64,000 nt of DNA from Patescibacteria group bacterium (GTDB taxonomy: Bacteria; Patescibacteriota; Patescibacteriia; Magasanikbacterales; GWA2-37-8). The notes under the pieces are model-generated. The model was not told the DNA's origin. It did not search any database and saw only the letters and a list, made by a program, of their open reading frames with translations. Position 1 is the first letter of the stretch. Each line of letters starts with the position of its first letter. The position numbers were made by a program, and so were the translations under genes. Shown here one piece after another: positions 3,053 through 50,269 of this stretch. The stretch spans positions 576,907 to 640,906 of the forward strand of contig JBAZUP010000001.1 of assembly GCA_041661385.1 (NCBI GenBank), written 5' to 3'.

Positions 3053-3125
3053 GGGTCGGTAGCTCAGCTGGTAGAGCAGAGGCCTCTTAAGCCTAAGGTC
3101 CCGGGTTCGATCCCCGGCCGACCCA
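3053..3125 (+). tRNA. tRNA-Lys (anticodon CTT)
   Basis: Cloverleaf: acceptor GGGTCGG/CCGACCC, T-arm CCGGG-TTCGATC-CCCGG, anticodon loop CTCTTAA. Confidence 0.8.
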
Positions 3126-3169
3126 CATAAAAGAAAACTCCACGTAAGTGGGGTTTTTCTTTTATGTAG

Positions 3170-3400
3170 TTTGTCTGGGAGCGAACAGAAGATGGAAAGA
3201 AACGGAGTTTCTTTCTTGCTGAGGAAAGCCCACGAAAACCCGAAGGTTTTCGTGAAGCGAACGAAGTGAGCGCGTGAGATCCCCAACGACCCACATATAT
3301 GGAAACCCTTTTGTGGGAGGACGAGCGAAGCGAGGACGACGGAGATCCCCGACTCACTCGTGAGATCCCCAATTACAAACATAGCAGATCACATATATTC
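3170..3400 (+). repeat. tRNA-linked conserved element, copy A (about 110-nt structured core plus duplicated tRNA-Lys 3' end and extra GAGATCCCC repeats)
   Basis: The core 'gatggaaagaaac...cccacgaaaacccgaaggttttcgtg...gtgagcgcgtgagatcc' is about 90% identical to copy B at 5861-5965. It is followed by 'gatccccaacgacccacata', a near-copy of the tRNA-Lys T-loop-to-3' end. Confidence 0.7.
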
Positions 3401-3445
3401 TTTTATCCTCTTTTCTCTGTTATAATATCCATTGCAAAGATACAT

Positions 3446-4537
3446 ATGAATAATTATAAAAATAAAATTTCAATTCTCGCTACGTTTATTGTTTTGCTTT
3501 CGTTCGGAAACAATGTAGCGGCAAAAACAATCATTAACCCCGCACCCAAAAAAATTACCAAAGAATTCGTCCGAATTTTTTATTGTCAAAACGGAAAAAA
3601 AGCCAGTGACTCACTCGCAAAAAATTATCGCTCGGTCGATATTATCGCCCCTCAGGCCTATTCAATCACTGCAACCGGCACCCTCATTGGCGGAGTTGAC
3701 CCTAAAATCACTGCCATAGCGACAAAACGCAAAATAAAAATAATGCCGCTTATCGTTAACAAAGGTTTTAGTAGCCGCGCCGCTGCAGATTTTTTTGATG
3801 ATATAGAACACCAACAGTCGGCTGTGAACGCCATGGTGGATGAGGGAATAAAAAATTCTTATTGGGGCTGGCAAGTAGATTTTGAACAAGTAAATATTTC
3901 TTATCAAAAACAATTTTCAGATTTTGTCGCAATACTCGGAGATGCATTGCATAAAAACGGCATGACGGTCAGCGTTGCGGTAATTGCTCAGACCTCTACT
4001 GAACCAACCGACTATAAAGGTGACTATTGGAATAAGTTCATCGGCGTTTATGATTACGCCGCGCTTGCCTCCAGTTCAGATTTCATTAGTCTAATGTCCT
4101 ACGATGACCCGGGTTCGACCGGCCCCGCAACCAGGTACACCTGGCTCAAACAAGTTTTAAATTTTTCTCTCAAATATATTCCTCCAGAAAAAATATCTAT
4201 TGGCATACCATTATACTACTGGCGATGGAATGATTCGACCGGCAAAAGAGTCGGTACTGGTACTTACACGCAGTTATTACAAAAAATGAATCAGTATAAT
4301 ATGAAACGCGGTTATGACCCGAAAGAAGCCGCCTCATATATGCGTTACCGTAGTAATAAAATGACTTACACGATTTGGTATGAAAATAGCAAAAGCGTCG
4401 CAAAAAAAATTGATTTAATCAAAGAAAATGGTTTGCATGGTTTTTCAGCGTGGGCACTTGGGCAAGAAGTGCCAAATTTTCACGAAGCGATTTTTTCAAA
4501 TAAATATTTGGTTGATCGCTCATTGGTGATGCGATAA
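3446..4537 (+). CDS. Secreted glycoside hydrolase family 18-like protein (start at the internal ATG before the signal peptide)
   Basis: Signal peptide MNNYKNKISILATFIVLLSF. A WGWQVDFE motif resembles the GH18 DxxDxDxE catalytic motif. The ORF-track start at 3299 is upstream of the signal peptide and unlikely. Confidence 0.55.
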   Translation: MNNYKNKISILATFIVLLSFGNNVAAKTIINPAPKKITKEFVRIFYCQNGKKASDSLAKNYRSVDIIAPQAYSITATGTLIGGVDPKITAIATKRKIKIMPLIVNKGFSSRAAADFFDDIEHQQSAVNAMVDEGIKNSYWGWQVDFEQVNISYQKQFSDFVAILGDALHKNGMTVSVAVIAQTSTEPTDYKGDYWNKFIGVYDYAALASSSDFISLMSYDDPGSTGPATRYTWLKQVLNFSLKYIPPEKISIGIPLYYWRWNDSTGKRVGTGTYTQLLQKMNQYNMKRGYDPKEAASYMRYRSNKMTYTIWYENSKSVAKKIDLIKENGLHGFSAWALGQEVPNFHEAIFSNKYLVDRSLVMR

Positions 4538-4593
4538 AAAATCACTAGTCTTAACTACTTGCGCGATATTTCTTTATACTGATCCTATTTAGA

Positions 4594-4628
4594 AATAAAA
4601 AAATACAACCTACATGAGGTTGTATTTT
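4594..4628. terminator. Bidirectional rho-independent terminator
   Basis: Hairpin 'aaaaatacaacctacatgaggttgtatttttt' flanked by A/T runs. Confidence 0.6.
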
Positions 4629-4745
4629 TTCAGGTCTCCATCATTATATCCGCAAAATATTGTGAACATAATGATAGTGTGGAGACCTGACAGTACGGTC
4701 TCCACACTTTTTTAGCGTGTGAAGCTATACTGCTAGGCTACTGCC

Positions 4746-5519
4746 CTAGTGACAGCCGAAACAGGCTGACTTGAAGGCCGGGCTCACGTCGATCACGCCG
4801 TTGCCGTGCAGAGACGGAACGGTGCTGGTCAAAACGCCCGTGCAGTAGGTGTAAGGAGCGCAACTGGTGACGAGGCCACCCGAGGTATTCACGAAGCTCG
4901 GATAGCCGCCGGAGACGTAGGCGCCGGTCACGCCAGGGTGACAGAGCTGGCAAGCGTTTCCGTTCGGAGTGAACGGGAAAGCATGCCGGCCGCTGTGCCA
5001 CGCGGGGATGGTACCATCGGCGAGCCTCGCCGGGATGCTGTGACAGGCCGAGCAGGTTGCAGAGCCGGTCGCGTACCACGAAGGCGAAACACCGCCAGAA
5101 GGACCGCCGTAAGCGACGGTATTCTGCACGGGCTCGCCGTCACCACCCTGCATCCAGTAGGAGAAGGTCCCCGCAGGAATGCTGTGGCAGCCCACGTTGG
5201 AGCAGGTCTTGTCGACCGCGTTGAACGTCGGCCGAGGCAGGCTCGGGTTGTAGGCGGTGCTGGTCGAATCGAAGACGAGACGGCCGGCGACCTTGTGGCA
5301 GACGGAGCAGCTGTACCGATCGTGCTTCTGGTGCGCGCCAGTGGGCAGGCACCCCGGATCGCCGTCGAAACAGTCGGCGTGATCGGCCATGAGGGCCTGG
5401 GGGCCGGCGATCGTCGCCGGAGTCGCAGAAGACGCCTCTTCCGCCGGGGCAGTCGCATCGACACCGCAGGCAGACAGCAGGAGCAATGCCATGAGTCCAA
5501 GCGCAGAAAGGAACTTCAT
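4746..5519 (-). CDS. Putative multiheme c-type cytochrome lipoprotein in a compositionally foreign island (about 65% GC)
   Basis: Lipoprotein signal MKFLSALGLMALLLLSAC. Motifs CSVCH, CSACH, CQLCH and CFGCH plus CSNVGCH are present. GC content is far above the flanks. Confidence 0.5.
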   Translation of the reverse strand: MKFLSALGLMALLLLSACGVDATAPAEEASSATPATIAGPQALMADHADCFDGDPGCLPTGAHQKHDRYSCSVCHKVAGRLVFDSTSTAYNPSLPRPTFNAVDKTCSNVGCHSIPAGTFSYWMQGGDGEPVQNTVAYGGPSGGVSPSWYATGSATCSACHSIPARLADGTIPAWHSGRHAFPFTPNGNACQLCHPGVTGAYVSGGYPSFVNTSGGLVTSCAPYTYCTGVLTSTVPSLHGNGVIDVSPAFKSACFGCH

Positions 5520-5524
5520 TCGAA

Positions 5525-5597
5525 CCTCCCAAAAGCGTGTACTTCAACCACCATGGTTGAAGCCGAGCATTATATCATTTTTAGGCCATTTTGTCAA
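5525..5597 (-). promoter_or_regulatory. Perfect consensus sigma70 promoter, palindromic operator and SD for the GC-rich gene
   Basis: On the minus strand: TTGACA (5597-5592), 17 nt, TATAAT (5574-5569), palindrome cttcaaccatggtggttgaag (5562-5542), GGGAGG (5530-5525), ATG at 5519. Confidence 0.55.
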
Positions 5598-5750
5598 TAG
5601 TTTCAAAAAAAGGCCACCTAATGCTATAATCTTGATTTTTCTCTTAAAACATGATAAAGTTGGCATATTCACCGCCCCTATTTTCAAGTGAAATGAGCGA
5701 AATGAATTTATTCATTTCCGAATGAACGAAGAAAATACGGCAGCGCAGCT

Positions 5751-5822
5751 GCCCCTATATTTCAATGGATAGAATAACAGGCTTCGAACCTGTAGATGGG
5801 AGTTCGATCCTCTCTGGGGGCA
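5751..5822 (+). tRNA. tRNA-Arg (anticodon TCG)
   Basis: Acceptor GCCCCTA/TGGGGGC, anticodon stem ACAGG/CCTGT with loop CTTCGAA, T-arm GGGAG-TTCGATC-CTCTC. Confidence 0.75.
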
Positions 5823-5860
5823 CAAAATAAAACTGACCTTTGTGGTCTGTTTTATTTTAT

Positions 5861-6022
5861 CTTGAGGATTGAACTGAAGATGGAAAGAAACGAAGTCTCT
5901 TTCTTGTTGAGGAAAGCCCACGAAAACCCGAAGGTCTTCGTGAAAGCGAACACAGTGAGCGCGTGAGATCCTCTCTGGGGGCACAAAATAAAACTGATCT
6001 TAATGGTCAGTTTTATTTTATT
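5861..6022 (+). repeat. tRNA-linked conserved element, copy B (core plus exact duplicate of tRNA-Arg T-stem 3' strand, acceptor 3' strand and trailer hairpin)
   Basis: 'gatcctctctgggggcacaaaataaaactga' at 5966-5996 repeats the tRNA 3' end and terminator seen at 5805-5838. The core is homologous to copies A and C. Confidence 0.75.
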
Positions 6023-6202
6023 CATATTTGGTAAATTGAGATTAAAAAAATGAAATTTTTTTGAAATATTTCATTAAAAATATTTTTTTATCTCCTTTCA
6101 TCAACAACTAATGATGCTGTGCATAACTTTACCTCTTACTATTTCAATATTTCGTCATTACATATATAATATTATCGAGGTCGAAAACTTTTACATCGAT
6201 GC

Positions 6203-22299: not shown

Positions 22300-25825
<3,526 letters not shown>

Positions 25826-49178: not shown

Positions 49179-49260
49179 GCCCGGGTGGTGAAATTGGTAG
49201 ACACAAGAGACTTAAAATCTCTCGCCGCAAGGCATACCGGTTCGATTCCGGTCCCGGGCA
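49179..49260 (+). tRNA. tRNA-Leu (anticodon TAA), long variable arm
   Basis: GCCCGGGTGGTGAAATTGGTAGACAC-AAGAGA-CTTAAAA-TCTCT...ACCGG-TTCGATT-CCGGT-CCCGGGC-A, followed by a perfect terminator hairpin at 49265-49300. Confidence 0.8.
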
Positions 49261-49300
49261 CATAATAAACACGGCCAGCATATGAAGCTGGCCGTGTTTA

Positions 49301-49450
49301 TTACATATTGGTCGGAATCGAACGGAAAGGGTTTGGGAAAACTGCTCGGCAGTTTACCCGCTATTGCCGGGGTGAGCCCACGAGAGGGCGGAAGTCATTT
49401 CGTGGGAGCGAGTGAAACGAGCGACGTTTGATTCCTCCCGGGCTAACTCA
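49301..49450 (+). repeat. tRNA-linked conserved element, copy C (diverged core plus partial duplicate of the tRNA-Leu T-loop and 3' end)
   Basis: 'gcccacgagagggcggaagtcatttcgtgggagcgagtgaaacgagcgacgtttgattcctcccgggc' parallels the cores and junctions of copies A and B. The T-loop GATTCC and acceptor strand CCCGGGC are repeated. Confidence 0.55.
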
Positions 49451-50269
49451 CTAAGTCTCAATTTCCAAAACGAGAGGTAAATGGTCGGAAATATTAAGGT
49501 TCGGCGCCTCAAAGCTTTTCACGGTTATTTCCGGTGAAACGAAGACAAAATCCGCATAATATTGTTTCACCCGATTCGGATATTGAGAGTGATTAAGAGC
49601 GCTTCTAGTGCTCTTAATTTTGTAATCTGTTATTAAATTTTTTAAACCTGACTCTTCAATAATTTTTACACTTTTTGTTCCCGGCATCAGATTAAAATCT
49701 CCTCCCAATATTTTCAACCCAGGTTGATTTTTTAAAACTTTACAGATATTTTTAGACTGACTAAGCCGGTCCTTAGTATCAAGTTTTTCTCCCGGATGGC
49801 TAATACCGTGGAAATTGTTCATCCAGATTTTTTTACCATTTATATTTACACAAAAAAATTGGATGATTCTTTCATATTCTTCCGGGTCGTCAGCGGCACC
49901 CTTATTTACATCCGCAACACCTGCTTTTTCTACCGTAATTCCTTTTTTTACAAAATAAGCGAGCCCCATCGGAAAAATTTTTCCGTCTTCTGTTTTTAAA
50001 TAGCTTGATCCGTCAAATTTTCCTTCAAAGCCAGGCAACATTGTTTTTAATTGTGAAAATGAATTCGAAGAACCTTCACCAACCAATTGTTCGAATTCTT
50101 TTCCTACTGGTCTTAAACCCTCGAGCCCGCCAAAACTTAAGTTGGCCTCCCCATCGGAAACCTCAGAAAAACAAAAAATATCCGTGCTAACCGAATTCTC
50201 GATTACGTATTCGCGGAAAAGTTTTTCTACCTTTCCAAACCAGGTATTTAGGTAAATTATTTTTAACAT
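49451..50269 (-). CDS. Endonuclease/exonuclease/phosphatase (EEP) family protein
   Basis: ILGGDFNLMP and SDHLPL motifs. Confidence 0.6.
   Translation of the reverse strand: MLKIIYLNTWFGKVEKLFREYVIENSVSTDIFCFSEVSDGEANLSFGGLEGLRPVGKEFEQLVGEGSSNSFSQLKTMLPGFEGKFDGSSYLKTEDGKIFPMGLAYFVKKGITVEKAGVADVNKGAADDPEEYERIIQFFCVNINGKKIWMNNFHGISHPGEKLDTKDRLSQSKNICKVLKNQPGLKILGGDFNLMPGTKSVKIIEESGLKNLITDYKIKSTRSALNHSQYPNRVKQYYADFVFVSPEITVKSFEAPNLNISDHLPLVLEIET

What the first reader, a model, noticed from the sequence alone, without database searches (positions are those of the whole stretch)
5823..6022. Conserved structured mini-element inserted after tRNA-Arg(TCG) with exact duplication of the tRNA T-loop-to-3' end and trailer hairpin
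The order is tRNA-Arg, its terminator hairpin (5823-5860), an element core of about 105 nt (5861-5965), then a second copy of gatcctctctgggggcac plus a second copy of the trailer hairpin. The core carries two strong hairpins (gaaaga..tctttc and cacgaaaacc-cgaa-ggtcttcgtg) and the internal direct repeats gaagatggaaag / gcgaacacagtgagcg. The duplication starts exactly in the T-loop (GATCC), the classical crossover site of T-loop-class tyrosine integrases. Homologous copies occur after tRNA-Lys (3170-3400) and tRNA-Leu(TAA) (49301-49450). Each is fused to the 3' end of its own local tRNA, so the element is generated by insertion, not by copying one locus. Candidate interpretations: a miniature non-autonomous integrative element (attP arms plus core) mobilised in trans; scars of excised islands; or a tRNA-linked structured ncRNA.
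Basis: seen in the sequence. Interest (0 to 1): 0.75.

Follow-up and report, generated by a model that had tools for sequence, protein, structure and literature searches.

The report
Small structured mobile element trailing tRNAs
Behind several tRNA genes of this tiny-genome (CPR) bacterium sits a protein-less, about 110-base folded element that ends in a copy of the tRNA's own tail, comes and goes between near-identical genomes, and matches no described RNA family or mobile element.

Summary
tRNA-Arg(TCG) (5751-5823) is followed by a hairpin, a ~105-nt core and an exact 18-nt copy of the tRNA's T-loop-to-3' end. Homologous copies follow tRNA-Lys and tRNA-Leu(TAA).

With related Magasanikbacteria-type contigs I collected 14 distinct copies. 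All lie 6-54 nt behind a same-strand tRNA, across six isoacceptors, and none lies elsewhere in about 290 kb.

The tRNA-sense strand folds into four helices with strong covariation (26 of 36 pairs changed on both sides; 0/500 shuffles). The closing helix pairs an antisense T-loop/T-stem segment with the T-loop-like start of the tRNA-tail copy. The element's right end therefore imitates the 3' half of a tRNA.

Two near-identical genomes differ by exactly one unit. The tRNA-Lys locus holds one full copy plus two stubs. Different core subtypes occupy the same tRNA in related genomes. So it is mobile and non-autonomous.

Two copies do not fit the proposed T-loop integrase crossover. Their brackets differ from the local tRNA yet still pair with each other.

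The enzyme is unknown, and so is whether the moving form is single-stranded DNA or RNA. There is no Rfam hit, no phage or plasmid copy, and no paper. Interest is high; the mechanism is unresolved.

The parts
5751..5823 (+). tRNA-Arg(TCG), the host or target gene. It is intact.
   Evidence: ARAGORN; Rfam tRNA 62.3 bits.
5824..5858 (+). A-tract / stem / T-tract hairpin at the 5' end of the inserted unit (leader).
   Evidence: Sequence. The equivalent hairpin is absent from the empty tRNA-Arg(TCG) sites of L022 and L024. In the L025/L024 pair the hairpin is part of the inserted DNA.
5864..5874 (+). 5' bracket GAGGATTGAAC. It is antisense to the T-loop plus the first T-stem-3' bases and forms the 5' strand of closing helix P1.
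   Evidence: 11/12 match to the reverse complement of the local T-arm. It pairs with 5963-5973. P1 columns covary (helix 1).
5882..5904 (+). Helix H1 (10 bp, GAA loop) with a G.U pair at its base.
   Evidence: Covariation in 7 of 10 pairs. The base pair is G.U in 10 of 13 copies (helices 2 and 3).
5905..5918 (+). Conserved joiner UGYUGAGGAAAGCC.
   Evidence: Nearly invariant across copies.
5919..5942 (+). Helix H2 (10 bp, CGAA loop).
   Evidence: 8 of 10 pairs changed on both sides; 97.7% paired (helix 4).
5946..5960 (+). Helix H3 GCGAAC-aca-GUGAGC with a tandem G.A. It is a small replica of the inner part of P1.
   Evidence: 6 of 6 pairs vary on both sides, and the tandem G.A is kept (helix 5).
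5963..5984 (+). 3' bracket. It consists of the T-loop-like GUGAGAU, then T-stem-3' (the 3' strand of P1), then a single-stranded copy of the acceptor 3' strand plus AC. Positions 5967-5984 equal tRNA 5806-5823.
5985..6019 (+). Second hairpin, terminator-like. With 5967-5984 it forms a 55-nt repeat of 5806-5860 (4 mismatches).
3127..3294 (+). Full unit behind tRNA-Lys(CTT) (3053-3126): hairpin 3133-3158, core 3174-3273, 3' bracket 3274-3294.
   Evidence: Covariance model 130 bits; sequence.
3301..3357 (+). Stub of an older unit of another subtype. It is the 3' half, running from the H2 loop to its own GAGATCCCC bracket.
   Evidence: Matches the 3' half of the L022 tRNA-Lys copy.
3358..3372 (+). 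Third and oldest stub, TCGTGAGATCCCCAA. Only the last core bases plus the bracket remain.
   Evidence: Matches the right end of the L024 copy.
49262..49445 (+). Full unit behind tRNA-Leu(TAA) (49179-49261), a divergent subtype: core 49311-49425, 3' bracket 49426-49445 with a 2-nt deletion.
   Evidence: Covariance model 35.7 bits, E 2e-8; sequence. L047 has the same defective bracket with a different core.

Best explanation
This is a family of small, protein-less mobile insertion elements specialised on the 3' end of tRNA genes in Magasanikbacteria-type CPR bacteria. One unit is about 115-190 bp and the conserved core is about 105 nt.

Shown:
- Every copy lies directly behind a tRNA, in the tRNA's orientation.
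- The tRNA-sense strand folds into four helices (P1, H1, H2, H3), kept by compensatory changes.
- P1 pairs an antisense T-loop/T-stem segment at the left edge with a T-loop-like plus T-stem-3' segment at the right edge. A single-stranded copy of the acceptor 3' strand follows.
- The right end of the element is therefore a look-alike of the 3' half of a tRNA gene: a hairpin plus a tail of about 10 nt.
- Units are gained or lost between near-identical genomes, stack up behind one tRNA, and are replaced by other subtypes at the same tRNA.

Inferred:
- An enzyme encoded elsewhere recognises 'T-arm hairpin plus acceptor tail' both on the tRNA gene and on the element's end.
- It joins the element within or just after the last 10-20 nt of the tRNA gene, by exchange inside the shared segment.
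- This leaves the tRNA intact and leaves a second copy of its tail at the far junction.
- The acting form is a folded single strand. I judge ssDNA (as with integron attC sites and the CTX-phage attP) slightly more likely than RNA.
- Because the T-loop part of P1 fits all tRNAs and only 4-6 bracket bases are tRNA-specific, a few changes could retarget the element to another tRNA.
For: - Linkage: 14 distinct copies, all 6-54 nt downstream of a same-strand tRNA. The hosts are Lys-CTT, Arg-TCG, Arg-CCG, Leu-TAA, Ser-GGA and Gln-TTG. There are no other hits in about 290 kb.
- tRNA-tail copies occur only where the element is present: 8 of the 43 tRNAs checked have one, all 8 carry the element, and none occurs at tRNAs without the element.
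- Fold: 86% of cells paired. 26 of 36 pairs changed on both sides, against 12.2+-1.9 in shuffles (0/500) and 4-10 in slid controls.
- Strand: G.T 20 against A.C 3, and G.A 46 against T.C 4.
- Mobility:
  - L025 is filled and L024 empty at tRNA-Arg(CCG), with identical flanks.
  - There are empty Lys, Arg and Leu sites in L023, L026, L028, L030, L034 and L048.
  - The window's Lys locus holds three generations of the element.
  - L011 has a tandem unit.
  - Related genomes carry different cores on the same tRNA.
- Element-borne, co-varying brackets are seen in L025 and L003.
- No coding capacity, and no recombinase or reverse transcriptase among 27 window ORFs scanned in Pfam.
- Many C(GNA)G triloops, one GCGAAGC mini-hairpin and tandem G.A pairs. 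From my own knowledge these are hallmarks of stable DNA hairpins.
Against: - No enzyme is identified, and no excised form or junction has been seen.
- A unit of 115-190 bp is too small for an ordinary double-stranded circle.
- The direct repeat varies from 10 to 55 nt and sometimes runs into the trailer. A fixed crossover does not predict this by itself.
- Orientation follows the tRNA, not the replication direction. This does not favour a replication-fork ssDNA route.
- GNRA tetraloops in H1 and a conserved G.U pair fit RNA at least as well.
- How both brackets come to match a new tRNA is not explained by any observed step.
- The covariance-model alignment is fitted to the structure, so pair counts lean towards it.
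Confidence: 0.5

Rival explanations
1. RNA-mediated, SINE/R2-like retro-insertion. The element is read through from the tRNA promoter and released by tRNA 3' processing. Its 3' tail (the tRNA-tail copy) anneals to a nicked tRNA gene and primes reverse transcription by an RT encoded elsewhere. Variable second-strand cleavage gives a target repeat of variable length.
For: - The fold is specific to the sense strand, with GNRA tetraloops (GUGA, GAUA, GGGA, GGUA) and a conserved G.U pair.
- The element has no promoter of its own and is always co-oriented just behind a highly transcribed gene.
- In L022 (Arg-CCG), L028, L029 and L031 no terminator separates the tRNA from the element, and the resident terminator follows the element.
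- The unit starts exactly at the tRNA's processed 3' end in the L025/L024 pair.
- Repeat length varies from 10 to 55 nt.
- Two stubs at the Lys locus keep their 3' ends and lack 5' parts.
Against: - About half of the copies carry a canonical terminator between the tRNA and the core.
- No RT was found.
- No CCA or A-tail is present at the junctions.
- Truncations are not only 5'. L011 has an internal deletion, and the window's Arg locus may keep only the 5' hairpin of an older unit.
- From my own knowledge, target-primed reverse transcription in bacteria is known only for group II introns.
Confidence: 0.2
2. An accessory structured non-coding RNA gene (or cis element of tRNA operons) with a cellular role. 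It spreads between strains only by DNA uptake and homologous recombination, using the tRNA on its left and the tRNA-tail copy on its right as homology arms. It has no transposition machinery of its own.
For: - Strong structural conservation, including invariant single-stranded motifs.
- The flanks are tRNA sequence on both sides.
- In L025 the exchange point lies inside the last 10 nt, and in several loci the two trailers are diverged versions of one another. This is what introgression from a related strain would produce.
- A joiner-H2-H3 module recurs in GC-rich Myxococcota-like contigs without tRNAs.
Against: - Copies decay, stack and are deleted, so they are dispensable.
- Nearly identical cores sit on different tRNAs in one genome. 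That needs real transposition.
- An 18-nt right arm is very short for RecA-type exchange.
- Several copies lie behind a terminator.
Confidence: 0.17
3. Classical integrase product. These would be miniature cis-mobilisable elements, or scars left by larger tRNA-integrating islands or phages whose tyrosine integrase crosses over in the T-loop. The core would be the arm of attP.
For: - A direct repeat of the tRNA's T-loop-to-3' segment, tandem accretion and orientation specificity are the textbook signature of tRNA-integrating elements.
- The region between tRNA-Lys and tRNA-Arg carries different cargo genes in every genome.
Against: - The core is conserved as structure rather than sequence.
- In L025 and L003 the distal T-stem copy is element-borne and not the resident's.
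- GTGA replaces TTC at the presumed crossover, while the downstream sequence is exact.
- The element boundaries are identical at six tRNAs.
- No integrase in the window and no copy in phage, plasmid or viral collections.
Confidence: 0.1

Closest known systems
Integron gene-cassette attC sites (and the folded attP of CTX phage)
   Same: - The site is conserved in structure rather than sequence and folds on one specific strand.
- Units stack, apparently with the newest next to the fixed target.
- Units can be very small and lack promoters.
- The ends of the closing helix (ATCGAAC ... GTTCGAT) resemble the RYYYAAC ... GTTRRRY boxes.
   Different: - The target is a tRNA gene tail, not attI or dif.
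- No IntI or Xer link is shown.
- A G|TT crossover is contradicted by the junctions (GTGA kept, downstream sequence exact).
- The fold is a four-way junction with tandem G.A pairs, not a simple bulged hairpin.
tRNA-integrating genomic islands and their integrase-less derivatives (cis-mobilisable elements)
   Same: - Insertion at the tRNA 3' end keeps the tRNA intact.
- There is a partial tRNA copy at the far junction.
- Tandem accretion and non-autonomy.
   Different: - The element is 100 times smaller.
- It has a structured core with covariation.
- Its brackets are carried by the element and pair with each other.
- The exchange point is not in the T-loop in the one resolved case.
- No integrase is seen.
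REPINs and IS200/IS605-derived palindrome-associated elements
   Same: - Protein-less, hairpin-based and strand-specific.
- About 100-200 nt long.
- Mobilised in trans.
   Different: - Those elements carry constant ends and make no target repeat.
- This element is confined to tRNA tails, and its outer helix varies with the tRNA.
SINEs and R2-type site-specific retroelements
   Same: - Non-autonomous, with tRNA-related sequence.
- Depends on a host gene's transcription.
- Variable-length target repeats and truncated copies.
   Different: - Bacterial host with no RT partner known.
- The tRNA-like part is only the 3' half and lies at the 3' end.
- No A-rich tail.

Membership tests
Any Rfam 15 RNA family (including ribozymes, group II intron domains, tmRNA, IS605-orfB and HEARO motifs) | Match to a curated covariance model | tested here: not met
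   At gathering thresholds the window gives only rRNA and tRNA. At E<=10 on 5650-6050 there are only chance microRNA-type hits. Nothing was found for L002, L009, L013 or L014.
tRNA-integrating tyrosine-integrase elements, T-loop sublocation | Direct repeat of the tRNA 3' segment at both junctions | tested here: met
   18/18 at the window's Arg locus, and 8 copies with <=2 mismatches in the last 14 nt.
tRNA-integrating tyrosine-integrase elements, T-loop sublocation | Crossover in the T-loop, so that the distal copy is the resident's original 3' end | tested here: not met
   In L025 against L024 the distal copy has CTAAC where the resident tRNA has CGCAC, and only the last 10 nt are shared. In L003 the distal copy is unrelated to tRNA-Ser beyond the T-loop.
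tRNA-integrating tyrosine-integrase elements, T-loop sublocation | Integrase gene in or beside the element (or a full-length relative) | tested here: not met
   No recombinase domain in 27 window ORFs, nor in the gene tables of the 20-kb related loci. The rest of the genome could not be searched.
Integron cassette / attC | Single-strand fold with paired RYYYAAC / GTTRRRY boxes | tested here: inconclusive
   The P1 ends are ATCGAAC / GTTCGAT or GTGAGAT. Each differs from the consensus at one or two positions. The resemblance may simply reflect the T-loop sequence.
Integron cassette / attC | Exchange at G|TT, with intI and attI nearby | tested here: not met
   The junction keeps GTGA followed by an exact tRNA copy. 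No integrase was found.
MITE (DDE-transposon derivative) | Constant terminal inverted repeats and a fixed-length target duplication | tested here: not met
   The outer part of the bracket differs with each tRNA, and the repeat length is 10-55 nt.
IS200/IS605-type palindrome-associated element / REPIN | Subterminal hairpins, no target repeat, and a TnpA/RAYT partner | tested here: inconclusive
   Hairpins are present at both ends in most copies. However, a target repeat is present and no partner gene was seen. The whole genome is not available.
SINE / non-LTR retroelement | Variable target repeats and an RT partner | not testable with these tools
   Variable repeats are seen. No RT lies in the sequence held. 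Transcripts cannot be assessed.

The most novel reading that the evidence does not exclude
The element is a guide-bearing mobile RNA or single strand. Its 5' bracket (antisense to the T-loop and T-stem 3') and its 3' tail (a sense copy of the acceptor strand) would read the two strands of the tRNA gene's tail and direct a trans-acting enzyme to insert the element there. That would make it a protein-less, retargetable, nucleic-acid-guided insertion element (or a bacterial SINE-like retroelement) that parasitises tRNA genes.
Probability: 0.2. Interest if true: 0.9.

Novelty: new variant of a known kind. Interest (0 to 1): 0.7.

Why it matters
tRNA gene tails are the commonest landing sites for mobile DNA, but the known users are kilobase-sized elements with their own integrase.

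Here a unit of roughly 115-190 bp with no gene, held together by a conserved four-helix fold that imitates the tRNA's own T-arm and acceptor tail, repeatedly enters, stacks behind and leaves tRNA genes in bacteria with minimal genomes.

If its partner enzyme reads a folded strand or a guide, it offers three things:
- a very compact, naturally retargetable insertion module;
- a new marker of genome dynamics in uncultured CPR bacteria;
- a new structured nucleic-acid family to add to the catalogues.

It also warns annotators that partial tRNA copies behind tRNAs in these genomes are not necessarily integrase scars.

Tried and rejected
- Rfam at gathering and permissive thresholds gave no family.
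- Hammerhead, group II domain 5, RNase P CR-I (GAGGAAAG) and K-turn readings were checked by eye against the copies and dropped. The motifs are not conserved or lack defining features, and these checks rest on my recollection of those families.
- Minus-strand RNA was rejected by the wobble and G.A asymmetry.
- A pseudo-acceptor stem (a 5' partner for the tail) is present in L025 only and not in the other copies, so it was dropped.
- Phage, plasmid and viral collections gave no copy. Seven viral pattern hits were chance matches, since the model did not confirm them.
- The endonuclease/exonuclease/phosphatase-family gene next to the Leu copy looked like a possible partner. It is a syntenic neighbour of ruvB even where the tRNA site is empty, so it was rejected.
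- An integron-type G|TT exchange and a T-loop integrase crossover were rejected on the junction sequences.
- A link to the replication-fork strand is not supported. The window copies lie on the leading-strand template by GC skew, and copies occur on both strands.
- Alignment A4 contained a row I had altered by mistake. It was not used for anything, and the model was built from A5.
- The genome and metagenome scans used a strict pattern, so divergent subtypes were certainly missed.

Full report
**What is in the window**

ARAGORN finds six tRNAs. Three lie on the + strand and are followed by homologous DNA: Lys-CTT (3053-3126), Arg-TCG (5751-5823) and Leu-TAA (49179-49261).

At the Arg locus the order after the tRNA is:
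- an A-tract/stem/T-tract hairpin (5824-5858)
- five bases of spacer
- GAGGATTGAAC (5864-5874)
- a core with three hairpins
- GTGA
- GATCCTCTCTGGGGGCAC (5967-5984)
- a second hairpin (5985-6019, terminator-like)

The 18-mer is identical to tRNA positions 5806-5823 and occurs only there. The repeat continues to 55 nt with four mismatches. A motif from the core occurs three times in the window against none in 100 shuffles. A covariance-model search with filters off finds only these three copies in 64 kb. The other three tRNAs (Leu-TAG, Arg-TCT, His) have plain trailers.

The left edge of each core is an inverted copy of the local T-loop and T-stem:
- Arg: GAGGATTGAACT against the reverse complement GAGGATCGAACT.
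- Leu: CGGAATCGAAC, which matches exactly.
- Gln in L013: 16 of 17.

This segment pairs with the T-loop-like start of the distal tRNA copy, so the core is closed by a helix (P1). Only the acceptor 3' strand copy is left single-stranded.

**Relatives elsewhere**

- One scan of species genomes gave two Candidatus Magasanikbacteria MAGs.
- One metagenome scan gave copies behind tRNA-Arg(TCG) and tRNA-Gln, a partial copy, and two GC-rich Myxococcota-like contigs that share only part of the core and have no tRNA.
- The RNase III gene upstream of tRNA-Lys has many homologues at 73-91% identity. The window's own contig is a 779-kb 'Patescibacteria group bacterium' MAG.
- Fetching the RNase III homologues' loci gave a syntenic series, rpmF-nusB-rnc-tRNA-Lys...tRNA-Arg(TCG), with tRNA-Arg(CCG) nearby.
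- A second series covers tRNA-Leu(TAA).

In all there are 14 distinct full copies behind six isoacceptors. Every one lies 6-54 nt downstream of a tRNA on the same strand, and nothing else scores in about 290 kb. Copies of a tRNA's last 14 nt occur downstream only at tRNAs that carry the element, 113-159 nt away.

**Structure**

I built a model from four unaltered copies with a hand-drawn four-helix structure. It aligned all copies full length (E from 1e-38 to 2e-8). On that alignment:
- 86% of cells are standard pairs, against 72% in shuffles.
- 26 of 36 pairs show changes on both sides, against 12.2+-1.9 in shuffles (0 of 500 reach it) and 4-10 when partners are slid.

The alignment is fitted to the model, which inflates pairing. 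However, hairpin sequences are wholly different between subtypes, for example:
- GGAAAGAAAC/GTTTCTTTC, GGTAGGAAAA/TTTTCCTACC and GGGAACC/GGTTCCC in H1;
- CACGAAAACC/GGTTTTCGTG, TTGAGGAACC/GGGTCCTCAA and CGCGGAAACC/GGTGTCCGCG in H2.

The cells that do not pair are almost all a conserved tandem G.A in P1 (AUCGAAC/GUGAGAU) and in H3 (GCGAAC..GUGAGC). Wobble and G.A counts are strongly one-sided: G.T 20 against A.C 3, and G.A 46 against T.C 4. The folded strand is therefore the tRNA-sense strand.

The loops do not settle RNA against DNA. H1 tetraloops are mostly GNRA, which suits RNA. There are also many C(GNA)G triloops and a GCGAAGC mini-hairpin, which to my knowledge are classic stable DNA hairpins.

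**Mobility**

- L024 and L025 encode the same RNase III protein. At tRNA-Arg(CCG), L024 reads tRNA|GCCACAAGTTTTT. L025 reads tRNA|hairpin-spacer-bracket-core-GTGAGATTCTAACCGAGGGCAC|GCCACAAGTTTTT.
- Empty sites for Lys, Arg(TCG), Arg(CCG) and Leu(TAA) occur in several relatives.
- Behind the window's tRNA-Lys lie three layers:
  - a full copy;
  - the 3' half of a copy of the subtype that occupies tRNA-Lys in L022;
  - a 15-nt right-end stub like that of L024.
- L011 has two tandem units, the second with its core deleted.
- The same tRNA carries different core subtypes in related genomes. At tRNA-Leu(TAA) the window and L047 have different cores but share the same defective distal copy (GATTCC-TCCCGGGC), so cores are replaced upstream of an older bracket.
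- Cores do not group by tRNA. The window's Lys and Arg copies, L003 (Ser) and L024 (Lys) are, by my eye on the aligned rows, about 8-10% apart. Movement between tRNAs is therefore frequent.

**Where the joint lies**

Three observations bear on this:
- In L025 the distal copy has CTAAC where the tRNA (and the empty allele) has CGCAC. The element's 5' bracket (TTtGAAT) pairs with that altered version. Only CCGAGGGCAC is shared.
- In L003 the distal copy (GTTCGAATAACCCCTAGAGGGCT) is unrelated to tRNA-Ser beyond the T-loop, but its CCCC pairs with GGGG of the 5' bracket.
- In L028, L029 and the window's Arg locus the repeat runs 7-37 nt past the tRNA end into the trailer.

The brackets are therefore carried by the element and kept complementary. 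The exchange lies in or after the acceptor strand. The leader, often a hairpin, travels with the element: L003 and L024 share the outer stem ATAACAAAAC..GTTTTGTTAT on different tRNAs.

**What moves it**

- The core has no ORF.
- 27 window ORFs scanned in Pfam, and the gene tables of the related loci, show no recombinase, transposase or reverse transcriptase.
- There is no promoter-like site between tRNA and core.
- About half of the copies have a canonical terminator before the core, and most have one after it.
- Orientation follows the tRNA and not the replication direction.
- No copy occurs in phage, plasmid or viral collections.

I therefore commit to the following, at about 50% confidence. 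This is a non-autonomous insertion element. Its folded single strand imitates 'T-arm hairpin plus acceptor tail'. It is joined to tRNA gene tails by an enzyme encoded elsewhere, through exchange within the shared tail.

Within that statement I rate an ssDNA form (integron attC or CTX attP logic) slightly above an RNA form. The three separately scored rivals are:
- a retro-insertion route, at 20%;
- an accessory RNA gene spread by homologous exchange, at 17%;
- the classical integrase reading, at 10%.

**Comparison with the known**

It works like integron cassettes and like integrase-less derivatives of tRNA-integrating islands. It fails defining tests for each: the exchange point, the partner gene, its size, and fixed ends. 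It is in no Rfam family. Five full-text searches found no description.

I class it as a new variant of a known kind, namely small non-autonomous site-specific elements. There is a 20% chance that it is something more unusual: a guide-bearing or retro-mobile element.

Noticed in passing
window 5673-5750; L024 11548-11623; L022 12793-12872: Upstream of tRNA-Arg(TCG) lies a partial copy of the tRNA's first ~15 nt (GCCCCTATTTTCAA). It is followed by a ~60-nt conserved segment, GAGCGAA-hairpin-TTCCGAA, whose hairpin shows compensatory changes (ATGAAT..ATTCAT against GTAAAT..ATTTAC). The segment is absent upstream of the same tRNA in L023 and L029. It may be a second kind of small element, at the 5' side of the tRNA.
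   Followed up: partly
L002 6860-6968 (+); L014 690-830 (-); L009 1-85: GC-rich, Myxococcota-like or soil contigs carry the joiner-H2-H3 part of the core, up to 15 identical bases with the window's Leu copy. Their H1-like hairpin shows compensatory changes. No tRNA is nearby in L002 or L014. L009 ends in a tRNA-tail-like GATCCCCAACAGAGGCGCA.
   Followed up: partly
window 22309-25821 (-): The 23S rRNA match spans 3513 nt against a 2925-position model, so about 590 nt of insertion(s) are present. To my knowledge such insertions are common in CPR rRNA genes.
   Followed up: no
window 3299-5600, and the same interval in L022, L024, L028-L031, L034, L011: The interval between tRNA-Lys(CTT) and tRNA-Arg(TCG) is a hot spot. 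It is 7-17 nt long in L034 and L011. Elsewhere it holds different genes: a GH18 glycosidase here, a PMT_2 protein in L022 and an M15 peptidase in L024. In L026 tRNA-Arg is inverted and converges on tRNA-Lys.
   Followed up: partly
L026 7935-8013 (-): Behind tRNA-Arg(CCG) lies a second, partial tRNA-Arg(CCG) running from the anticodon loop to the 3' end, with a ~30-nt GC-rich insert in the anticodon loop. It looks like the displaced part of an anticodon-loop insertion event.
   Followed up: no
L029 10924-11050: A ~125-nt long-palindrome insert (GTAGTTAGTAATTTG ... CAAATTACTAACTAC) sits directly behind tRNA-Lys, where L028 carries the structured element. It is a different small element using the same site.
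   Followed up: no
window 49451-50269 (-): An endonuclease/exonuclease/phosphatase-family gene ends 6 nt after the Leu copy. Its closest database relative is only 56% identical, whereas RNase III reaches 91%. It keeps its place next to ruvB in relatives whose tRNA-Leu site is empty.
   Followed up: yes
window 1-64000: GC skew is negative in every 8-kb window and most ORFs lie on the minus strand. The whole window therefore lies on one replichore, with the plus strand as leading-strand template.
   Followed up: partly
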